Assembly: GCA_001662655.1 (NCBI GenBank)
Contig: KV460221.1
Strand: one strand, 5' to 3'
From: Pseudogymnoascus verrucosus
Lineage: Eukaryota
Length of the DNA stretch: 64,000 nt
Positions 811 to 39,170 of this stretch are shown here, piece by piece; within the stretch, counting starts at the first letter, position 1; each line of letters begins with the position of its first letter. The position numbers and the translations under genes are program-made. The notes under the pieces were generated by a model. That model saw only the letters and a list, made by a program, of their open reading frames with translations. It had not been told where the DNA came from and ran no database searches.

Positions 811-2651
811 ATGCCGCCACAAAGACCCCTAAGCTCATCTAATCCGTCATCTTCCTTGATGGTCTCTCAAGATGACTACGTCCCGCCAGTCAAATATGAC
901 CCAAGCGTCCGTGTCAAAGCAGAGAGGGTAGAGAGCCCCACTGCCGTTGGCGATAATGATGATGATGATTTCGAAGATGTCGACGATGAGGCAGAAGGGC
1001 TTCTTGCCGATGCTGATGGAGTCCCTATGTACTCTGATGCCGACTTCAAGATACGCCAAGTCGCATCCCCATTTATCGTTCAGCGTACACTCGTGAGTCT
1101 ATATAGTATGTCCCTTGCCATATCCATACTCCATGTAATACTGACACGTAAGCAGACTTGAGCAAGACGAAATACCTGAAGCTGGACCCTGAGTATCAGC
1201 GAGATGTGGTCTGGGATGAGACGAGGTCGTCAGGCCTAATTGCCTCTGTCCTGCAAGGCTACTTCATTCCCCCCATAATCTTCAACGTGCTTGAAGAATG
1301 GGAGACGTCGGATAACGGCGAAGAAGTAATGCGACATTGCCGGATTTGTGTTGATGGAAAGCAACGTCTCACGTCACTTCAGAAATTCATGGAGGGCAAA
1401 ATCGGGGTGTCTGACTCGTCGCATCCACCGAAGAAGTGGTATTTCTGCCACCCAAAGGTCGGCGGTGTTGAAAAGCAATCAAACCACAATATCCTGCCGC
1501 TGAATACAAAGAAGTTTTTCGAGTCACGAATGTTCTGCTGCTATGAATACCAGAAACTGACGCCTTCTGTTGAAGAGACGATGTTCCAGCTCGTCCAACG
1601 CGGGATGCCACTTACCCCAGCTGAAAAGATGCGTGCCATGTCGACACCATGGGCAAATTTCGCAAAGCAGTATGAGAGCGATTACCCAGCCGTCCTATCT
1701 CTAGGTAGACAGAGTAGGGCCTCGGGCTTCCGTCAGATCATGTCAATATTCTGCCAGATCATGGAAGTCATGTCTCCAAGCGGCGACAAGAAAAAGAACA
1801 GAGAAGGAGCAGGATGGAAGCCAACTTACCAAGCCACCCCATCAAACCTTACAAAGCTTCTTATGGATACGCCATCCCTAAACGAAAGCGTGAAGAGAAA
1901 GTTCAAGAGGGTTTTCGACAAATATGCCGAGCTCATCGCATCGTGCTCAGAGCCAGATAAGGGTTCTCCCACCGGACTCGCGATCAAGAAGGACAGTTGC
2001 TTTGCACCCGCTCCGGAGGGCCTAAGGAACAGAGGGGTCACCCATGTCAAGACCTTTTCACCGCTCGAGGTTGTCGCCACCTCCATCTTGCTCCTCCGCC
2101 ATATGGACGATAGAACTAACCAGATGCTCCAAGGCGACATCATGGAAATGCGCGTCTACCTCCGTCAGAAGAACAAAGACCTGCGGCTGAACAACACATG
2201 CTGGGCTGATTCCTACCAATTCATCGATGTCGACTTGATCCAGCTCCGCGGTGGAGCAGGGGCGTCGAGACGACGTGCGGCGGCTCCTGTGCCACAGGAA
2301 AACCTTCCAATTGAAATCGATAGCGACACTCCCGATAATCAAGCGGGCCGACGCACCTCCGCACGCAGAAATACAGATGCGTCATCCGCGCTGCCAATGC
2401 GTGGAGTAGATCAAAATGATGGTGTAAGGTCCACTCGGTCAGGGAGAGTGGGCATGAGCTCCTTGACGGCTTCGATTGCGAACGGCAGTCCGATAATGAC
2501 GAACGGCGGGGTATTCAGTCCGGAGCCTGGATGGGAGGCACCGATGGCTCCGATGGCTCCGATGATACAGACGATCAAGCCTCGGAAGCGTCTCCATGAA
2601 TCTGATGGCAATGCTGCCCCTAGTATGAGGCGTGTTCGGCCGAGAGATTAA
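811..2651 (+). CDS. DUF262 (GmrSD N-terminal / ParB-like NTPase) domain protein, ~596 aa; join(811..1105,1156..2651)
   Basis: GTATGT..CTGAC..CAG intron 1106-1155 joins the two ORFs in frame. Motifs LDPEYQRDVVW, GYFIPPIIF and CVDGKQRLTS match the DUF262 QR/DGQQR signatures. Start codon uncertain (ATG 746 possible). Confidence 0.8.
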
Positions 2652-34672: not shown

Positions 34673-35873
34673 AATTGTCGTTATTGACTATTTCTACAAA
34701 CTGGGAGATGCTGCTCTTAGAGCTAAAGAGATTAGTTGCAAGGGGGAAGTTTGGCTGGGGCGGCACATCTGTTACATCAGAACACAATTGTCAACACTTA
34801 TAAATAGATGGCTATATGAGAAAGACATACGTATAGTTTATACCTCCATAATTGTACGTAGCAAACCCAGAACCCTGATAAGTGTCTAGGTACCTGGCAT
34901 ATGATGACATTGAAGAGTTTGAATGTCCAAGGTCGAGAGTCATACTCCCAAGTGGATGAAACGCCCTTGGAGAGTATACAGTACCTGACATATTTGCGAG
35001 AACAGACTGACCCGCTCCAGTGAGATTACTAGCTGAGAGCAGTGAACAAATACTAGACAAAGCACCAAGAACATTGGAACTGGCGCGGTTAGTCCAGTGC
35101 CTGCTCTGTAATGATAGCGCTGAGTGGCACATGAGAAAGAAGAATCTTTCGAATCTTTCCTAATATACGTAAATGTGACCACACATATGTATGAATTAGC
35201 TTCACCTGGGGCTACTACTCCTAGGATTGATAATCTAGAGCGACAGTGCATAATCACTGTTATTAAAACACGAATAGTGAGACTGGACTCGCATCTTCTT
35301 ACCTGACCCTAAAATAACGAGCGTATTCTGGAACAAGGGACTGGGAGGTGGTCTAGGAATAGGGATTCTGTTGAGGCGGTGAGTGAGACTTCTGACAATT
35401 AGTGAACAATGTCTTATAGAGCTCATCAGTGCAAAAGGCACCTCATGAGATTTATCCCTAATTACCATGTGTTATAGAGACTTTAGATCCATTCTATTAA
35501 TAAATATGTCAACCCCGCGCCTGCCGTTTCCAGAGGACCAATACGCTTGAGAGGAGCCGGTTGATTCGTCAGGTCGGGCATGGTGGATAGAGACGATGGG
35601 GAGGGTGTTTGGCCCATTCGAAAAATAGCTGTATCATTTGCTAAGGAAATTGACTCTTAGTTATAGTGGATCTGTGAAAAGCGTCCAAATATTGCTCATT
35701 GTCCAGTGTGTCTGAGTCTTCATACACCTCCTCCCCGTCGAAACGGTGGACTAATTTATGCTTATTGAGGAACACAACCTGTTTTGCTCCTCGCTATCAG
35801 TGAAATACAGATAAACTAAATCTACAATCCCTCGCGTTCCTCCTGTTCTTCTATGAAATAAGGGAGATCATTC

Positions 35874-38012
35874 TCATTTGAAGCCGTGTAGTTCCAACAT
35901 ATCCACTGCCCCTGTACCTGAGAAGGCACACGCTAGCAGACTGCCATCTGGTGACAAGGCAATACCCGAATCGATCTCACCAGGCCTAACGAGCGTATCG
36001 TGCACGTTTCCCGTGGTTGACTCCCATATCTGTATCGTCTTGTCTAAGGAAGCTGATAAAAGCAGCTTCCCGTCTGGTGAGAAGGCGATGGACACAACAC
36101 TCCTAGTGTGCTCTGCAAATGTTTGTCGATTTATTCCTGTAGCTAGATCCCATATCTTAACCGTGGTATCTAGTGAAGTTGATGCTAGTAGTTGACCGTC
36201 CGGTGAGAAGGCTATAGCAAAAATGCAGACACTATGCGCCACAAACGATCTTATCTCATATCCTGTGTGCGGATCCCATAGTTTGATAACTCCACCCCCA
36301 CAAGCGGATGCGAGTAGCCTTCCATCTGGTGAGAAGGCGACAGATTGAGCACCGCGCTTATGTATGAGAATTAACAGTAAGCATCCCGTAGTAGGATCCC
36401 ATATACGGATCTTCTTCTCGTCAGAAGCGGATGCTAATAACTTTCCATCTGGTGAGAAGGCGATGCAATTAACAAAATCGCCACTCTCCATAGGACTCTG
36501 CATTTGTAGCTCCTTTCCTGTGGCCGGGTTCCAGAGCTTGACCGTCCTATCACGCGCATCACCGACTCTCACGGCACACGCTAGGAGATTTCCATCTGGT
36601 GAGAAAGCCATGGCACCAACCCCTCTGTTATGTTCAAGTACTTGCAACGTCTTTTGCGTAGCTACATCACATAGCCTAACTGTCCCGTCAAGCGAAGCTG
36701 TCGCTAGCAGCTTACCATCTGGCGAGAAAGCGATGTCAAAAACCCTGGAGGTATGGCCCCGAAGTGTTGTCATCCGGCTCCCCCATATTTTGCCGCGATG
36801 TAAATCCCCCGAGACTGGTAATTCAGGGATGTGGATTTCTTTCATTGAACCTGACTGTACACACTGTAGAGCACTGGGGTATATACTCAAAGGGAACTGT
36901 TCAATGTCCGCTCTATAGTCTAGTATGAAGCGCTTTGCATCGAGCACGAAGCCCCTTAGCTTTGCACTGCATATTGCCTGCATATTTCTTAATTTAGCAT
37001 ATATTCCATTCCCATCCAGGTTTTGTCGTCACACTCACGTTATCAACGAGACTTACTAAAGACTCTAGTGAATTGATACCATCCTGTAAATGCCCTAACA
37101 AACTAAGAGCCTCGAGCCAGCATAGAAAATGGCCTGTGAGGAAGTTGTAGACTTGGTTTTGCAGATCCACGTCACCCAAAAACTTATATTTACCACGGCA
37201 GAGATGAGGTACCCAATATCTACAGGCGTACCGAAGCTCTTCAGGAACCATGTGGTTTATGTGACTGCGATGTATTGCGCCTATCTTTGTGTTTTCTAAA
37301 GATAGTTTGCAAATATTTCTCTGTAAGCCGCTTGATATTTGCTGTATGCACTTCTCGGCAAGGGCACAGTAGGCTCTTTCTTCGTCTAACGTACGTTAAA
37401 ATCATTTCAAATCTATATTGTTAAACAAGGGAGAACGTACGAAGAAGATTTTGAGCGTTGCTTGCTAATAATGAGATATTATCCACAGCTAACGCATCAG
37501 AACCGGCCCTATTCTTCTTCACAGGCGCCGAGCAGGTAAATCCTTTTGCGTCACACCTTTGGCATTTTTCGCCTGGCCATTGGCGCTCGGAGGGTTCACA
37601 CTAAGCGCACCGAGTTGTAAGTTACATCTCGGGTGTGTAGACGCGCAGAGAGGAGAGGAAAGGAGAGGGAAACGTTGGTTATGGGACGGTCAGGAATGAA
37701 GAACTGAGCGAGTAATGGAGAGAAGGAGTGTGAGAAGAAGGGGCTGTAGGGAAGGATAAGGGGATTGAGCCGCATATGATAGTGCAAGACACTGACCTTC
37801 TTCTTGGACCGCCGGCAAAAGTCACACTTGACGTATTCTAATCGACGTTTCTGTCTTGGAGGTCCAAGTTCTATAGCAGGACGCGTAGTGGAGTCGGGAT
37901 AATCTGACTGCGTTATGGGTGCTAGACTGCCGAAGTTGTGACGATCTATTTCGATCAACTTGGCCCAGTTGGCCTCATATGGTTGTTGATGATTGACGAT
38001 GTTTGAATTCAT
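35874..38012 (-). CDS. Zn(II)2Cys6 cluster + HNWD/HET-E-like helical region + 7 WD40 repeats, ~608 aa; complement(join(35874..36977,37039..37385,37441..37600,37797..38012))
   Basis: Splicing yields CDFCRRSKKK-CEPSERQWPGEKCQRCDAKGFTC (C-x2-C-x6-C-x11-C-x2-C-x6-C), then GLQRNICKL...ELRYACRYWVPHL...HFLCWLEALSLLG...DAKRFIL...PLSIYPSAL, then seven A(F/L)SPDG.LL repeats. Donors GTCAGT/GTACGT/GTGAGT; reading frame open throughout. Confidence 0.75.
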
Positions 38013-38289: not shown

Positions 38290-39170
38290 GCGCACTTGGT
38301 CGCAATGTAATCTATCCGCCTCATAACTGCGTACCTAGTCTGTCGCACTGAAGTACGACAGCTACGATGAAAGGTTAATCGCGGTCCTGTGGGCCCAACA
38401 AGGGAGCACCAAATGCACGGTGAACATCCGGCGGGTCGGAGTCTCAGTCTCCAAGAGACTCCGACCCGCCGGATGTGCGTGCACTAGTCACAGTTCTTGC
38501 CCACAACTGTCGAATCTATTCGCCTTCAGGCTCAGCGCACTGAAGTGCGACAGCATGGATGGAAAGTTCACCACAGTCATCAACCCAATTCACCCCTGTT
38601 GTAAATGCAGAAGAAACCCCGTTTGTTAGGCTTCCCTCCAATAAGACCAATGCGCACTAGTCGCAGTGCTGGAGCACACTCGTCGCAACGCTCGCGCACA
38701 GATTGTCGAAGGCGTCTCTCCGGATTTCAAGATCAGCGCACTAACGTGCGACAGCTAGGATGGAGGGTTAATCGCGCCCAACAAGAACCTCCCCCCAATA
38801 AGAATAATGCGCACTTTGTCGCACTGCTCACACTGCTCACACAGACTTGTCGCAGTGGTCGCAGTGCTGCTCCTGGTAGATTTTCAGGTTGCGTATTCTA
38901 GACACACACTTGTAGGTGTGCTCCCACTTCGTCCACAGCCTTACAAGCCGGTGGTGGCCAACCAGCACAAATGCGACGGATAGAAGAATAGTCCATGGCT
39001 CTTTACATGGATTCCCTATCCAATAATAATAATGCGCACTTGTCGCAGTGCCCACATGCTGCCACGGATCAACTATCGTATTACACATGACGCCTACCTT
39101 TACATCTATCCAACGCCACAGGCGCTCACTTGTATAGCACGTTGCGGGCTTGCACTTCGCGTCGCACTCT
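38290..39170. repeat. Degenerate repeat array (~160-225 bp spacing) carrying GCGCACT..GTCGCA and CGCACT-N3-GT(G/A)CGACAGC motifs
   Basis: Motif A at ~38290, 38479, 38650, 38807, 39032; motif B at ~38341, 38533, 38734. Confidence 0.7.
38424..38476. repeat. Perfect inverted repeat, 22-bp arms, 9-nt loop
   Basis: ACATCCGGCGGGTCGGAGTCTC-agtctccaa-GAGACTCCGACCCGCCGGATGT. Confidence 0.93.

What the first reader, a model, noticed from the sequence alone, without database searches (positions are those of the whole stretch)
35874..38012. Zn(II)2Cys6 cluster fused to an NLR-type (HNWD/HET-E) WD40 sensor, with the NACHT domain absent
Seen: four exons with canonical splice sites give one open 608-aa frame; the six-Cys cluster is split by intron 1, so the ORF track misses it. 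About 30 aa later the protein enters the region that normally follows NACHT in fungal NACHT-WD40 receptors (LQRNIC, LRYACRYW, HFLCWLEALSLLG, DAKRF, PLSIY.SAL) and ends in seven AFSPDG-type WD40 repeats. I see no P-loop. Known: HNWD proteins use WD40 repeats for non-self sensing and NACHT for oligomerisation; Zn2Cys6 is a fungal DNA-binding domain. Inference: an exon-shuffled chimera (junction at intron 2) that could be a one-component sensor-transcription factor or a decoy of NLR signalling.
Basis: partly seen in the sequence, partly recalled or inferred. Interest (0 to 1): 0.8.

Follow-up and report, generated by a model that had tools for sequence, protein, structure and literature searches.

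The report
Zinc-cluster protein with borrowed NLR sensor
A real, conserved fungal gene joins a Gal4-type zinc DNA-binding motif to the rear half (helical arm plus seven-bladed WD40 propeller) of an immune-receptor-like NLR protein that has lost its ATPase switch, an arrangement I found described in no paper but whose function is still untested.

Summary
The four-exon model (minus strand, 38012-35874) gives 608 aa identical to the deposited protein VE01_04595 of Pseudogymnoascus verrucosus. It has an intact six-Cys Zn2Cys6 pattern split by intron 1. Pfam Zn_clus is just under threshold: 18.9 bits against 21. Next come a helical arm and seven WD40 blades. The arm and propeller are homologous and colinear to the part of fungal NACHT-WD40 NLRs behind the NACHT/winged-helix region. 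No NACHT or P-loop is in the protein or anywhere in the 64-kb window.

It is not a fresh deletion relic. Nine named Pseudogymnoascus strains carry the same build, and the Zn block is its best conserved part. A 37%-identical metagenome ORF encodes Zn cluster and arm in one uninterrupted frame.

The 'HNWD/HET-E' label fails: there is no HET domain, the repeats are only 37% alike and they are positionally orthologous.

My best reading is a DNA-bound regulator that uses a domesticated NLR sensor module. This is inference; I found no RNA data, and no DNA-binding or ligand evidence exists. Four literature searches found no description of this build. Interest is moderate.

The parts
37797..38012 (-). 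Exon 1, codons 1-72: variable N-terminal tail, conserved basic stretch PPRQKRRLEY, and the first two cluster cysteines (C63, C66) with RRSKKK
37601..37796 (-). Intron 1 (196 nt, GTCAGT...TAG), splits the six-Cys cluster after K72
37441..37600 (-). Exon 2, codons 73-125 plus the first base of codon 126: cysteines 3-6 (C73, C85, C88, C95) and a poorly conserved linker
   Evidence: (Zn_clus E 0.02 on this exon alone)
37532..37826 (-). Zn2Cys6-type binuclear cluster, residues 63-95 (interrupted by intron 1)
   Evidence: (Zn_clus 18.9 bits, E 0.0017, profile 3-38/39)
37386..37440 (-). Intron 2 (55 nt, GTACGT...TAG), at the border between the Zn-cluster part and the NLR-derived part
37039..37385 (-). 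Exon 3, codons 126(part)-241: helical arm homologous to the stretch of NACHT-WD40 NLRs that lies behind the NACHT/winged-helix region
   Evidence: (2999 relatives at E<=1e-3)
36978..37038 (-). Intron 3 (61 nt, GTGAGT...CAG)
   Evidence: acceptor changed to AA in the contig of run X2
35874..36977 (-). Exon 4, codons 242-608 plus stop: end of the helical arm (to about residue 290) and the WD40 propeller
35886..36785 (-). Seven-bladed WD40 beta-propeller, residues 306-605

Best explanation
This is a functional, lineage-restricted gene of Pseudogymnoascus. The rear module of a NACHT-WD40 NLR (helical arm plus a fixed seven-bladed propeller) was cut just behind its winged-helix region and placed behind a Gal4-type Zn2Cys6 cluster.

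Shown: the gene model, the domain order, the NLR origin of residues 127-608, the loss of the NTPase, and conservation of the build with the Zn block under the tightest constraint.

Inferred: the protein enters the nucleus through the conserved basic stretch next to the cluster. It binds CGG-type DNA sites through the cluster. It uses the arm plus propeller, in place of the usual middle homology region of zinc-cluster factors, as the surface that binds a protein or small ligand and thereby controls or recruits the transcription machinery.

Because the NACHT switch is gone, it cannot work by nucleotide-driven oligomerisation as NLRs do. Any signal must pass directly from propeller occupancy to DNA-bound activity.
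For: The gene model equals the deposited 608-aa protein.

The six Cys have the spacing x2/x6/x11/x2/x6, with RRSKKK between Cys2 and Cys3. The Zn_clus alignment covers profile positions 3-38 of 39. The AlphaFold model puts two helix-then-strand units on residues 64-75 and 86-96. A twofold helix-strand layout is what I recall for Gal4-type clusters.

Conservation: 9 named Pseudogymnoascus strains carry the cluster plus arm. Against P0005, the Zn block (residues 45-100) is 78-98% identical, the arm exon 56-97% and the propeller 48-82%. The flanking tail and linker fall to 27-53% in the more distant strains.

P0144, a metagenome ORF, is colinear over residues 55-239 at 37% identity (E 1e-37). It holds cluster, linker and arm in one uninterrupted frame, so the two halves are translated together in a distant relative.

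In the close-relative DNA contig X2, the two indels inside the coding sequence are 3 and 15 nt. Exons 1-3 differ at 5 of about 720 bases, against 5 of 312 intron bases.

The NLR origin rests on 2999 relatives of exon 3 at E<=1e-3. In long relatives the match lies behind the NACHT: P0016 has NPHP3_N at 177-342 and the match at 562-683; P0017 has NPHP3_N at 353-518 and the match at 727-827.

Between P0005 and the 90%-identical P0169, 30 of 42 propeller differences fall at repeat offsets 11-18 or 32-40, which make up 17 of about 42 positions. By my recalled WD40 topology these are the B-C and D-A loops of the top face, as expected for a surface that tracks a changing partner.
Against: Pfam Zn_clus stays under its gathering score (18.9 against 21 bits; 18.1 in P0144; 17.1 in P0006). 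The only solved zinc-cluster protein found by sequence is LEU3, at E 7.4.

The cluster region has model confidence of only 52-57.

No transcript evidence was obtained, and DNA binding is untested.

There is no middle homology region and no shown dimerisation element.

Over the propeller part covered by X2, the crude pN/pS is 0.63 (20 nonsynonymous, 10 synonymous). Over exons 1-3 the counts (4 and 1) are too few to show constraint. Five of the 45 differences were not listed.

In X2 the intron-3 acceptor reads AA. One orthologue model (P0006) has no WD40 at all, and two (P0012, P0020) lack parts of the arm. These may be annotation errors or real decay.

The arm has no convincing solved structural relative: best Z 7.2, in the noise range for helical folds. 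Its 'HD2-like' role rests on position in the NLR relatives, not on structure.
Confidence: 0.5

Rival explanations
1. NLR-pathway decoy or adaptor. The protein does not regulate genes through DNA. Its propeller binds the same ligand as one or more full NLRs and titrates it, or it hands it over. The zinc cluster serves only as a structural or protein-binding knob.
For: The arm and propeller are clearly NLR-derived. Propeller differences between near-identical strains cluster in two loop regions, as expected for a recognition surface. Zn_clus is below the Pfam threshold.
Against: The zinc block, including the basic residues between Cys2 and Cys3 and the basic stretch before Cys1, is the most conserved part of the protein. 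That is hard to explain for a mere knob. No close full-length NLR paralogue turned up: the best long NLR is only 39-42% identical over exon 3. No NLR or HET gene lies in the 64-kb window.
Confidence: 0.15
2. Decaying chimeric relic. A truncated NLR picked up upstream exons by chance and the open frame persists, without function, in a young genus.
For: No RNA evidence. Crude pN/pS is 0.63 in the propeller, and counts in exons 1-3 are uninformative. The acceptor AG is AA in X2. The models are heterogeneous: P0006 lacks WD40, P0012 and P0020 have gaps in the arm, and P0015 is 314 aa.
Against: Intact frames are found in 9 strains whose propellers have diverged to about 50% identity while the zinc block stays at 78-98%. 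All six Cys are invariant. The coding indels are in frame. A 37%-identical relative keeps the same cluster-arm fusion. Repeat number and order are stable at seven.
Confidence: 0.1
3. Gene-model artefact. The zinc-cluster exons and the arm-WD40 exons belong to two separate transcripts and are joined only by prediction software.
For: No transcript data were available here. Exons 1 and 2 on their own give weak or no Pfam hits.
Against: P0144 holds cluster, linker and arm in one continuous ORF. The same order and frame recur in independent annotations of 9 strains. The exon 2/3 phase fits with canonical GT-AG sites, and no stop-free alternative start for the arm is evident: the frame upstream of exon 3 closes at 37395.
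Confidence: 0.05

Closest known systems
Fungal NACHT-WD40 NLRs (NWD/HNWD class; e.g. Podospora anserina HET-E, HET-D, NWD2; Dyrka et al. 2014, PMC4986451, passages read)
   Same: Residues 127-608 are homologous and colinear with the part of these proteins that lies behind the NACHT/winged-helix region. It shares the conserved YACxYW and FLxWLEALSL motifs and AFSPDG-type WD40 repeats.
   Different: There is no N-terminal effector domain, no NACHT or P-loop, and no highly internally conserved repeats (37% against >85%). Seven positionally orthologous blades replace a variable-length array. The best long NLR relative is only 39-42% identical over exon 3.
Gal4-type Zn(II)2Cys6 transcription factors (Pfam PF00172 Zn_clus)
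   Same: Six cysteines with family-typical spacing, basic residues between Cys2 and Cys3, a proline before Cys4, and an N-terminal position in the protein.
   Different: It scores just under the Pfam threshold, and the loop between Cys3 and Cys4 is long (11 residues). There is no fungal-specific middle homology region and no demonstrated coiled-coil dimer element. The C-terminal part is a WD40 propeller. The census of 312 Neurospora crassa transcription factors lists no Zn2Cys6+WD40 class among its multi-domain factors (PMC5592922, passages and Table 1 text read).
DNA-binding domains joined to NLR/STAND sensors: plant RRS1 (TIR-NB-LRR-WRKY) and bacterial STAND regulators such as MalT and AfsR (recalled, not tested here); zinc fingers in Sordariales NLRs (PMC12258605, passages read)
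   Same: A nucleic-acid-binding module and an NLR-type repeat sensor sit in one chain.
   Different: Those proteins keep the NTPase switch. The Sordariales cases are C2H2 or treble-clef fingers, mostly C-terminal, in full NLRs (57 NLRs). Here the switch is gone and the finger is a Zn2Cys6 at the N-terminus.
Tup1/RCO-1-type WD40 transcriptional adapters (RCO-1 named in PMC5592922)
   Same: A seven-bladed WD40 propeller used at promoters as a protein-binding platform is a plausible working analogy.
   Different: Those adapters have no DNA-binding domain of their own and their propellers are not NLR-derived. No sequence relationship was tested or claimed.

Membership tests
Fungal NLR (NOD-like receptor, sensu Dyrka et al. 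2014) | Central NACHT or NB-ARC nucleotide-binding domain with P-loop | tested here: not met
   Residues 1-306 give only Zn_clus at E<=10. No GxxxxGK[ST] motif. tblastn of six NLR relatives finds no NACHT-equivalent DNA in the whole window.
Fungal NLR (NOD-like receptor) | C-terminal WD40/ANK/TPR repeat domain joined to the NOD by a conserved helical arm | tested here: met
   The arm and WD40 are colinear with P0013 residues 458-921 and with P0016, P0017, P0018 and P0019. Exon 3 has 2999 relatives at E<=1e-3.
HNWD / HET-E family | N-terminal HET domain | tested here: not met
   No HET hit in residues 1-306 at E<=10.
HNWD / HET-E family | WD40 repeats with high internal conservation (>85% identity) and variable repeat number | tested here: not met
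   Mean pairwise repeat identity is 37%, maximum 52%. Seven repeats are found in P0005, P0008, P0009 and P0169 (six anchors found in P0012). For P0008 and for repeats 1-6 of P0169, each repeat's best partner is the same-numbered repeat. Definition.
Zn(II)2Cys6 binuclear cluster (PF00172) | Six cysteines C-x2-C-x6-C-x5-12-C-x2-C-x6-8-C (spacing recalled) | tested here: met
   C63-x2-C66-x6-C73-x11-C85-x2-C88-x6-C95. The cysteines are invariant in 7 of 7 aligned orthologues.
Zn(II)2Cys6 binuclear cluster (PF00172) | Profile score at or above Pfam's gathering threshold | tested here: inconclusive
   18.9 bits against 21, E 0.0017, covering profile 3-38/39. UniRef calls the protein 'Zn(2)-C6 fungal-type domain-containing', presumably from another signature that I could not run.
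Zn(II)2Cys6 transcription factors | Sequence-specific DNA binding, usually as a dimer at CGG repeats | not testable with these tools
   Needs DAP-seq, gel shift or ChIP.
WD40 beta-propeller | Closed propeller of WD repeats | tested here: met
   Pfam WD40 E 6e-66. The model has 7 blades with pLDDT mostly 83-95. Match to 5yzv_A at Z 42.3, rmsd 1.4, 284 aligned; Foldseek E 1.8e-27 to 7big_A.
STAND helical domain 2 (Apaf-1/NLR 'HD2' arm) | Structural match to a solved HD2 | tested here: inconclusive
   The model of P0144 (arm pLDDT 90-98) gave a best Z of 7.2 and no Foldseek hit at E<=0.001; no STAND protein was among the rows shown. The model covers only the exon-3 part of the arm.

The most novel reading that the evidence does not exclude
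An NTPase-free, one-component 'NLR-to-gene' sensor. A domesticated NLR recognition module, still diversifying on its ligand face between strains, is wired directly to a DNA-binding zinc cluster, so recognition of a non-self or stress cue is turned into transcription without oligomerisation or cell death. This would be a new output mode for fungal NLR-derived sensors.
Probability: 0.2. Interest if true: 0.8.

Novelty: new variant of a known kind. Interest (0 to 1): 0.5.

Why it matters
Fungal NLRs are known as modular receptors whose output is an effector domain released by NACHT-driven oligomerisation. A conserved gene that keeps only the recognition half and couples it to a DNA-binding domain would show that NLR sensor modules can be reused outside the NLR logic. 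It would also offer a simple handle on what an NLR-type WD40 propeller recognises: the targets can be read from a transcriptome and the partners from a pull-down.

It is also a caution for NLR censuses built on the NOD domain, which miss such derivatives. The case is confined, as far as I could see, to Pseudogymnoascus and one metagenomic relative, and nothing about its function has been measured.

Tried and rejected
RNA evidence: the look-up of sequencing runs listed no RNA holder. Of the two runs laid, X1 (library labelled transcriptomic, flagged 'probably DNA', share 0.09) gave two 151-nt contigs at 35791-35941 and 36159-36309. X2 gave one DNA contig that retains all introns. There were no joints. 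Nothing can be said on expression.

Homodimer test: complex prediction on residues 45-300 in 2 copies gave no verdict (score 0.00; controls not run).

Own genome: none is held, so paralogues and a P. destructans orthologue could not be sought. No P. destructans protein appears among the hits, which is weak evidence only.

Donor of the zinc-cluster exons: a search with residues 1-130 found 7 proteins, all of them the same orthologue set.

P0144: its contig was not found in metagenome contigs (86 pattern matches, none confirmed), so I could not see whether WD40 repeats follow. A 'longer' search with P0144 found none among 1523 candidates.

ESM Atlas: both calls scored at most 0.82, with generic WD40 or unnamed clusters.

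Solved structures by sequence: 4 hits at E<=10, none significant.

Fold search of the arm: best Z 7.2, within the noise for helical folds.

Whole-protein fold searches returned only propellers.

Earlier scan notes: none on this genome, sequence or architecture.

Literature: four searches and passages of five papers gave no Zn2Cys6-WD40 or Zn2Cys6-NLR-arm protein. Supplements were not opened and could list such architectures.

Considered and dropped:
- A relic NACHT hidden in introns or upstream DNA. The introns are 55-196 nt, and tblastn finds nothing.
- The 38424-38476 palindrome as a dispersed repeat element. It is unique in the window.

Full report
**What is there.** On the minus strand, four exons (38012-37797, 37600-37441, 37385-37039, 36977-35874) are bounded by canonical sites. 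The donors are GTCAGT, GTACGT and GTGAGT; the acceptors end TAG, TAG and CAG; the introns are 196, 55 and 61 nt. The exons join into 1827 nt, that is 608 codons and a stop. The product is identical to a deposited protein, 'hypothetical protein VE01_04595 [Pseudogymnoascus verrucosus]', which UniRef names a Zn(2)-C6 fungal-type domain-containing protein.

**Domains.**
- Exon by exon, Pfam finds half a Zn_clus on exon 2 (E 0.02), nothing on exons 1 and 3, and WD40 on exon 4 (E 8e-68, 6 stretches).
- On residues 1-306 of the joined protein the only family at E<=10 is Zn_clus. It covers residues 63-103 and profile positions 3-38 of 39, at E 0.0017 and 18.9 bits, just under the curated 21 bits.
- The pattern is C63-x2-C66-x6-C73-x11-C85-x2-C88-x6-C95, with RRSKKK between the second and third cysteine. 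Intron 1 splits it after K72.
- The AlphaFold model (15-sequence alignment, mean pLDDT 74.5) gives two short helix-strand units on the cluster at low confidence (52-57). It gives a confident all-helical domain from about residue 121 to 290 and a confident seven-bladed propeller at 306-605.
- The propeller matches solved WD40 propellers: 5yzv_A at Z 42.3, rmsd 1.4, 284 residues; Foldseek E 1.8e-27 to 7big_A.

**No NACHT.**
- The protein has no P-loop motif and no NTPase family in residues 1-306.
- tblastn with six NLR relatives against the whole 64-kb window gives hits only between 35913 and 37389. Nothing corresponds to their residues N-terminal of P0013:458, P0014:205, P0016:562, P0017:727, P0018:735 or P0019:688.
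- The introns are too short to hide a relic.

**Origin of residues 127-608.**
- Exon 3 alone finds 2999 proteins at E<=1e-3, and 406 at E<=1e-10, among 1.84 billion representatives.
- In long relatives the match sits behind the NACHT. P0016 has NPHP3_N/NACHT at 177-342 and the match at 562-683. P0017 has NACHT_N at 93-298, NPHP3_N at 353-518, the match at 727-827, and WD40 after that.
- In truncated relatives printed, the segment just upstream of the match carries a conserved 'hHxSFRDFL ... FWVDE' stretch. I take this, from recall, to be the end of the winged-helix part. In the window's protein the zinc-cluster linker stands at that place.
- The homology begins at 37389/37380, and exon 3 begins at 37385. 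The border between the two halves thus coincides with intron 2.
- Homology then runs on colinearly into the propeller: P0013 residues 458-577, then 581-921.
- A structural label for the arm could not be confirmed. A model of the relative P0144 (arm pLDDT 90-98) gave a best Z of 7.2 and no Foldseek hit at E<=0.001.

**Not HNWD/HET-E.**
- There is no HET domain.
- The seven repeats are on average 37% identical to each other, 52% at most. The highly internally conserved repeats that mark HNWD genes and about a fifth of fungal NLR WD arrays are defined at over 85% (PMC4986451, passages).
- Repeat i of P0005 is most similar to repeat i of P0008 for all seven repeats, and to repeat i of P0169 for repeats 1-6. 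For P0009 and P0012 this holds for repeats 1-4.
- This is a fixed propeller, not a shuffling array.

**Conservation.**
- Proteins with the same cluster and arm come from nine named Pseudogymnoascus strains: VE01, V499, V500, V501, V502, V496, V491, V492 and V490.
- All six cysteines, and 21 of the 33 residues of the cluster, are invariant in the 7 aligned full models.
- Identity to P0005 by segment, over those strains: the Zn block (45-100) is 78-98%, the arm exon 56-97%, residues 242-300 are 45-100% and the propeller 48-82%. The N-terminal tail is 27-95% and the linker 36-100%.
- Among all 166 proteins held at that point, the Zn2Cys6 pattern occurred only in eight of these orthologues and in P0144.
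- P0144 is a 253-aa ORF from a metagenome contig. It aligns colinearly with residues 55-239 at 37% identity (E 1e-37) and scores 18.1 bits on Zn_clus. It ends where intron 3 lies, and it has no interruption at the places of introns 1 and 2.
- The fusion is therefore older than the divergence seen inside the named strains, and the two halves are read in one frame in a distant relative. It also weakens the idea that intron 2 is the scar of the fusion.

**A close relative's DNA.**
- Run X2 yielded one contig covering 36275-38200 with 48 other letters and 18 gap letters. It keeps the introns, so it is DNA.
- Its two coding indels are 3 and 15 nt. The 15-nt insertion matches the five extra residues seen in P0007 and P0169.
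- Of the 40 listed differences (45 in all, 5 not shown), 5 are in introns, 11 are synonymous and 24 nonsynonymous when taken singly.
- Crude pN/pS is 0.63 for the covered propeller part (20 and 10). It is uninformative for exons 1-3 (4 and 1).
- Per base, exons 1-3 changed less (5 of about 720) than introns (5 of 312), and the propeller changed more (30 of about 700).
- Between P0005 and P0169, 30 of 42 propeller differences lie at offsets 11-18 or 32-40 from the AFSPDG anchor. By the usual WD40 topology (recalled) these are the two loops of the top face.
- Against function in that relative: the intron-3 acceptor AG reads AA in X2. I could not resolve how, or whether, it splices.

**Context.** The neighbours are ordinary: a GmrSD_N-like ORF, a P450 fragment, a Ctr copper transporter, malate synthase, a 2EXR protein, ApbA_C, a short-chain dehydrogenase, a C2H2 protein, a kinase with a KA1 domain and SMC-like ORFs. 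There is no NLR and no HET gene.

**How it most likely works.**
- Shown: the architecture, its origin, the loss of the switch, and the pattern of conservation.
- Inferred: nuclear import by the conserved basic stretch; DNA binding by the cluster; and use of the arm-propeller as the ligand or partner-binding regulatory half, in place of the usual middle homology region.
- Without NACHT the protein cannot use nucleotide-driven oligomerisation.
- I put 0.5 on this reading, 0.15 on a non-DNA decoy or adaptor, 0.1 on a decaying relic and 0.05 on a gene-model artefact. The remainder is open.

**Novelty.**
- The protein is in the databases with an automatic name, so the sequence itself is not new.
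- I found no description of a Zn2Cys6 cluster joined to an NLR arm and WD40 in four full-text searches.
- Nor did I find one in passages of the fungal NLR domain surveys (PMC9815663, PMC12258605, PMC4986451), the Fusarium WD40 census (PMC13628547) or the Neurospora transcription-factor census (PMC5592922).
- The Sordariales survey reports zinc fingers in 57 NLRs, but these are C2H2 or treble-clef types in complete NLRs.
- Supplements were not read.
- I rate it a new variant of known kinds, of moderate interest, with the function open.

Noticed in passing
window 38424-38476: A perfect palindrome with 22-nt arms and a 9-nt loop, rich in CGG/CCG triplets, lies about 410 nt upstream of the start codon. 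It is unique in the window and none is expected by chance. It could be a binding site for a zinc-cluster protein, possibly this one, or a hairpin-forming element.
   Followed up: partly
window 38330-39060: The intergenic DNA upstream of the gene consists of three to seven degenerate direct repeats with spacings of about 145-225 nt (families D1-D5, 60-89% identity).
   Followed up: no
window 36978 (run X2 contig): In the DNA contig of a close relative (about 97.5% identical), the last base of intron 3 is changed, so the acceptor AG reads AA. The annotated VKM F-103 protein P0169, which shares most of X2's other changes, is still modelled as spliced at this site.
   Followed up: partly
P0006 (VKM F-4518 orthologue), residues about 300-634: This model keeps the zinc cluster and the arm but continues with about 330 residues that have no WD40 or any other Pfam family. 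This is either a mis-prediction on an 8.9-kb contig or a real replacement of the propeller.
   Followed up: no
window 35235-35471 (minus strand): The models of P0007 and P0169 splice the last blade to a downstream ORF (…LTHRLNR.PIPRPP.SPLFQ…) that is also open in the window. The unspliced end (…V-D/E-x-W/L-E-L-H…) is the one conserved in five other orthologues and closes blade 7.
   Followed up: partly
window 1152-2648 (+): A 499-aa open frame with a GmrSD_N domain (E 3.5e-18), a domain better known from bacterial type IV restriction enzymes, in this fungal window.
   Followed up: no
P0011 (Logan ORF, relative of VKM F-3775): In this relative the equivalent of intron 3 is open and in frame (…NNVSVANEPRRKIHAKTRKMQSKST…). 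A prokaryote-style gene call therefore reads from the arm straight into the propeller.
   Followed up: no
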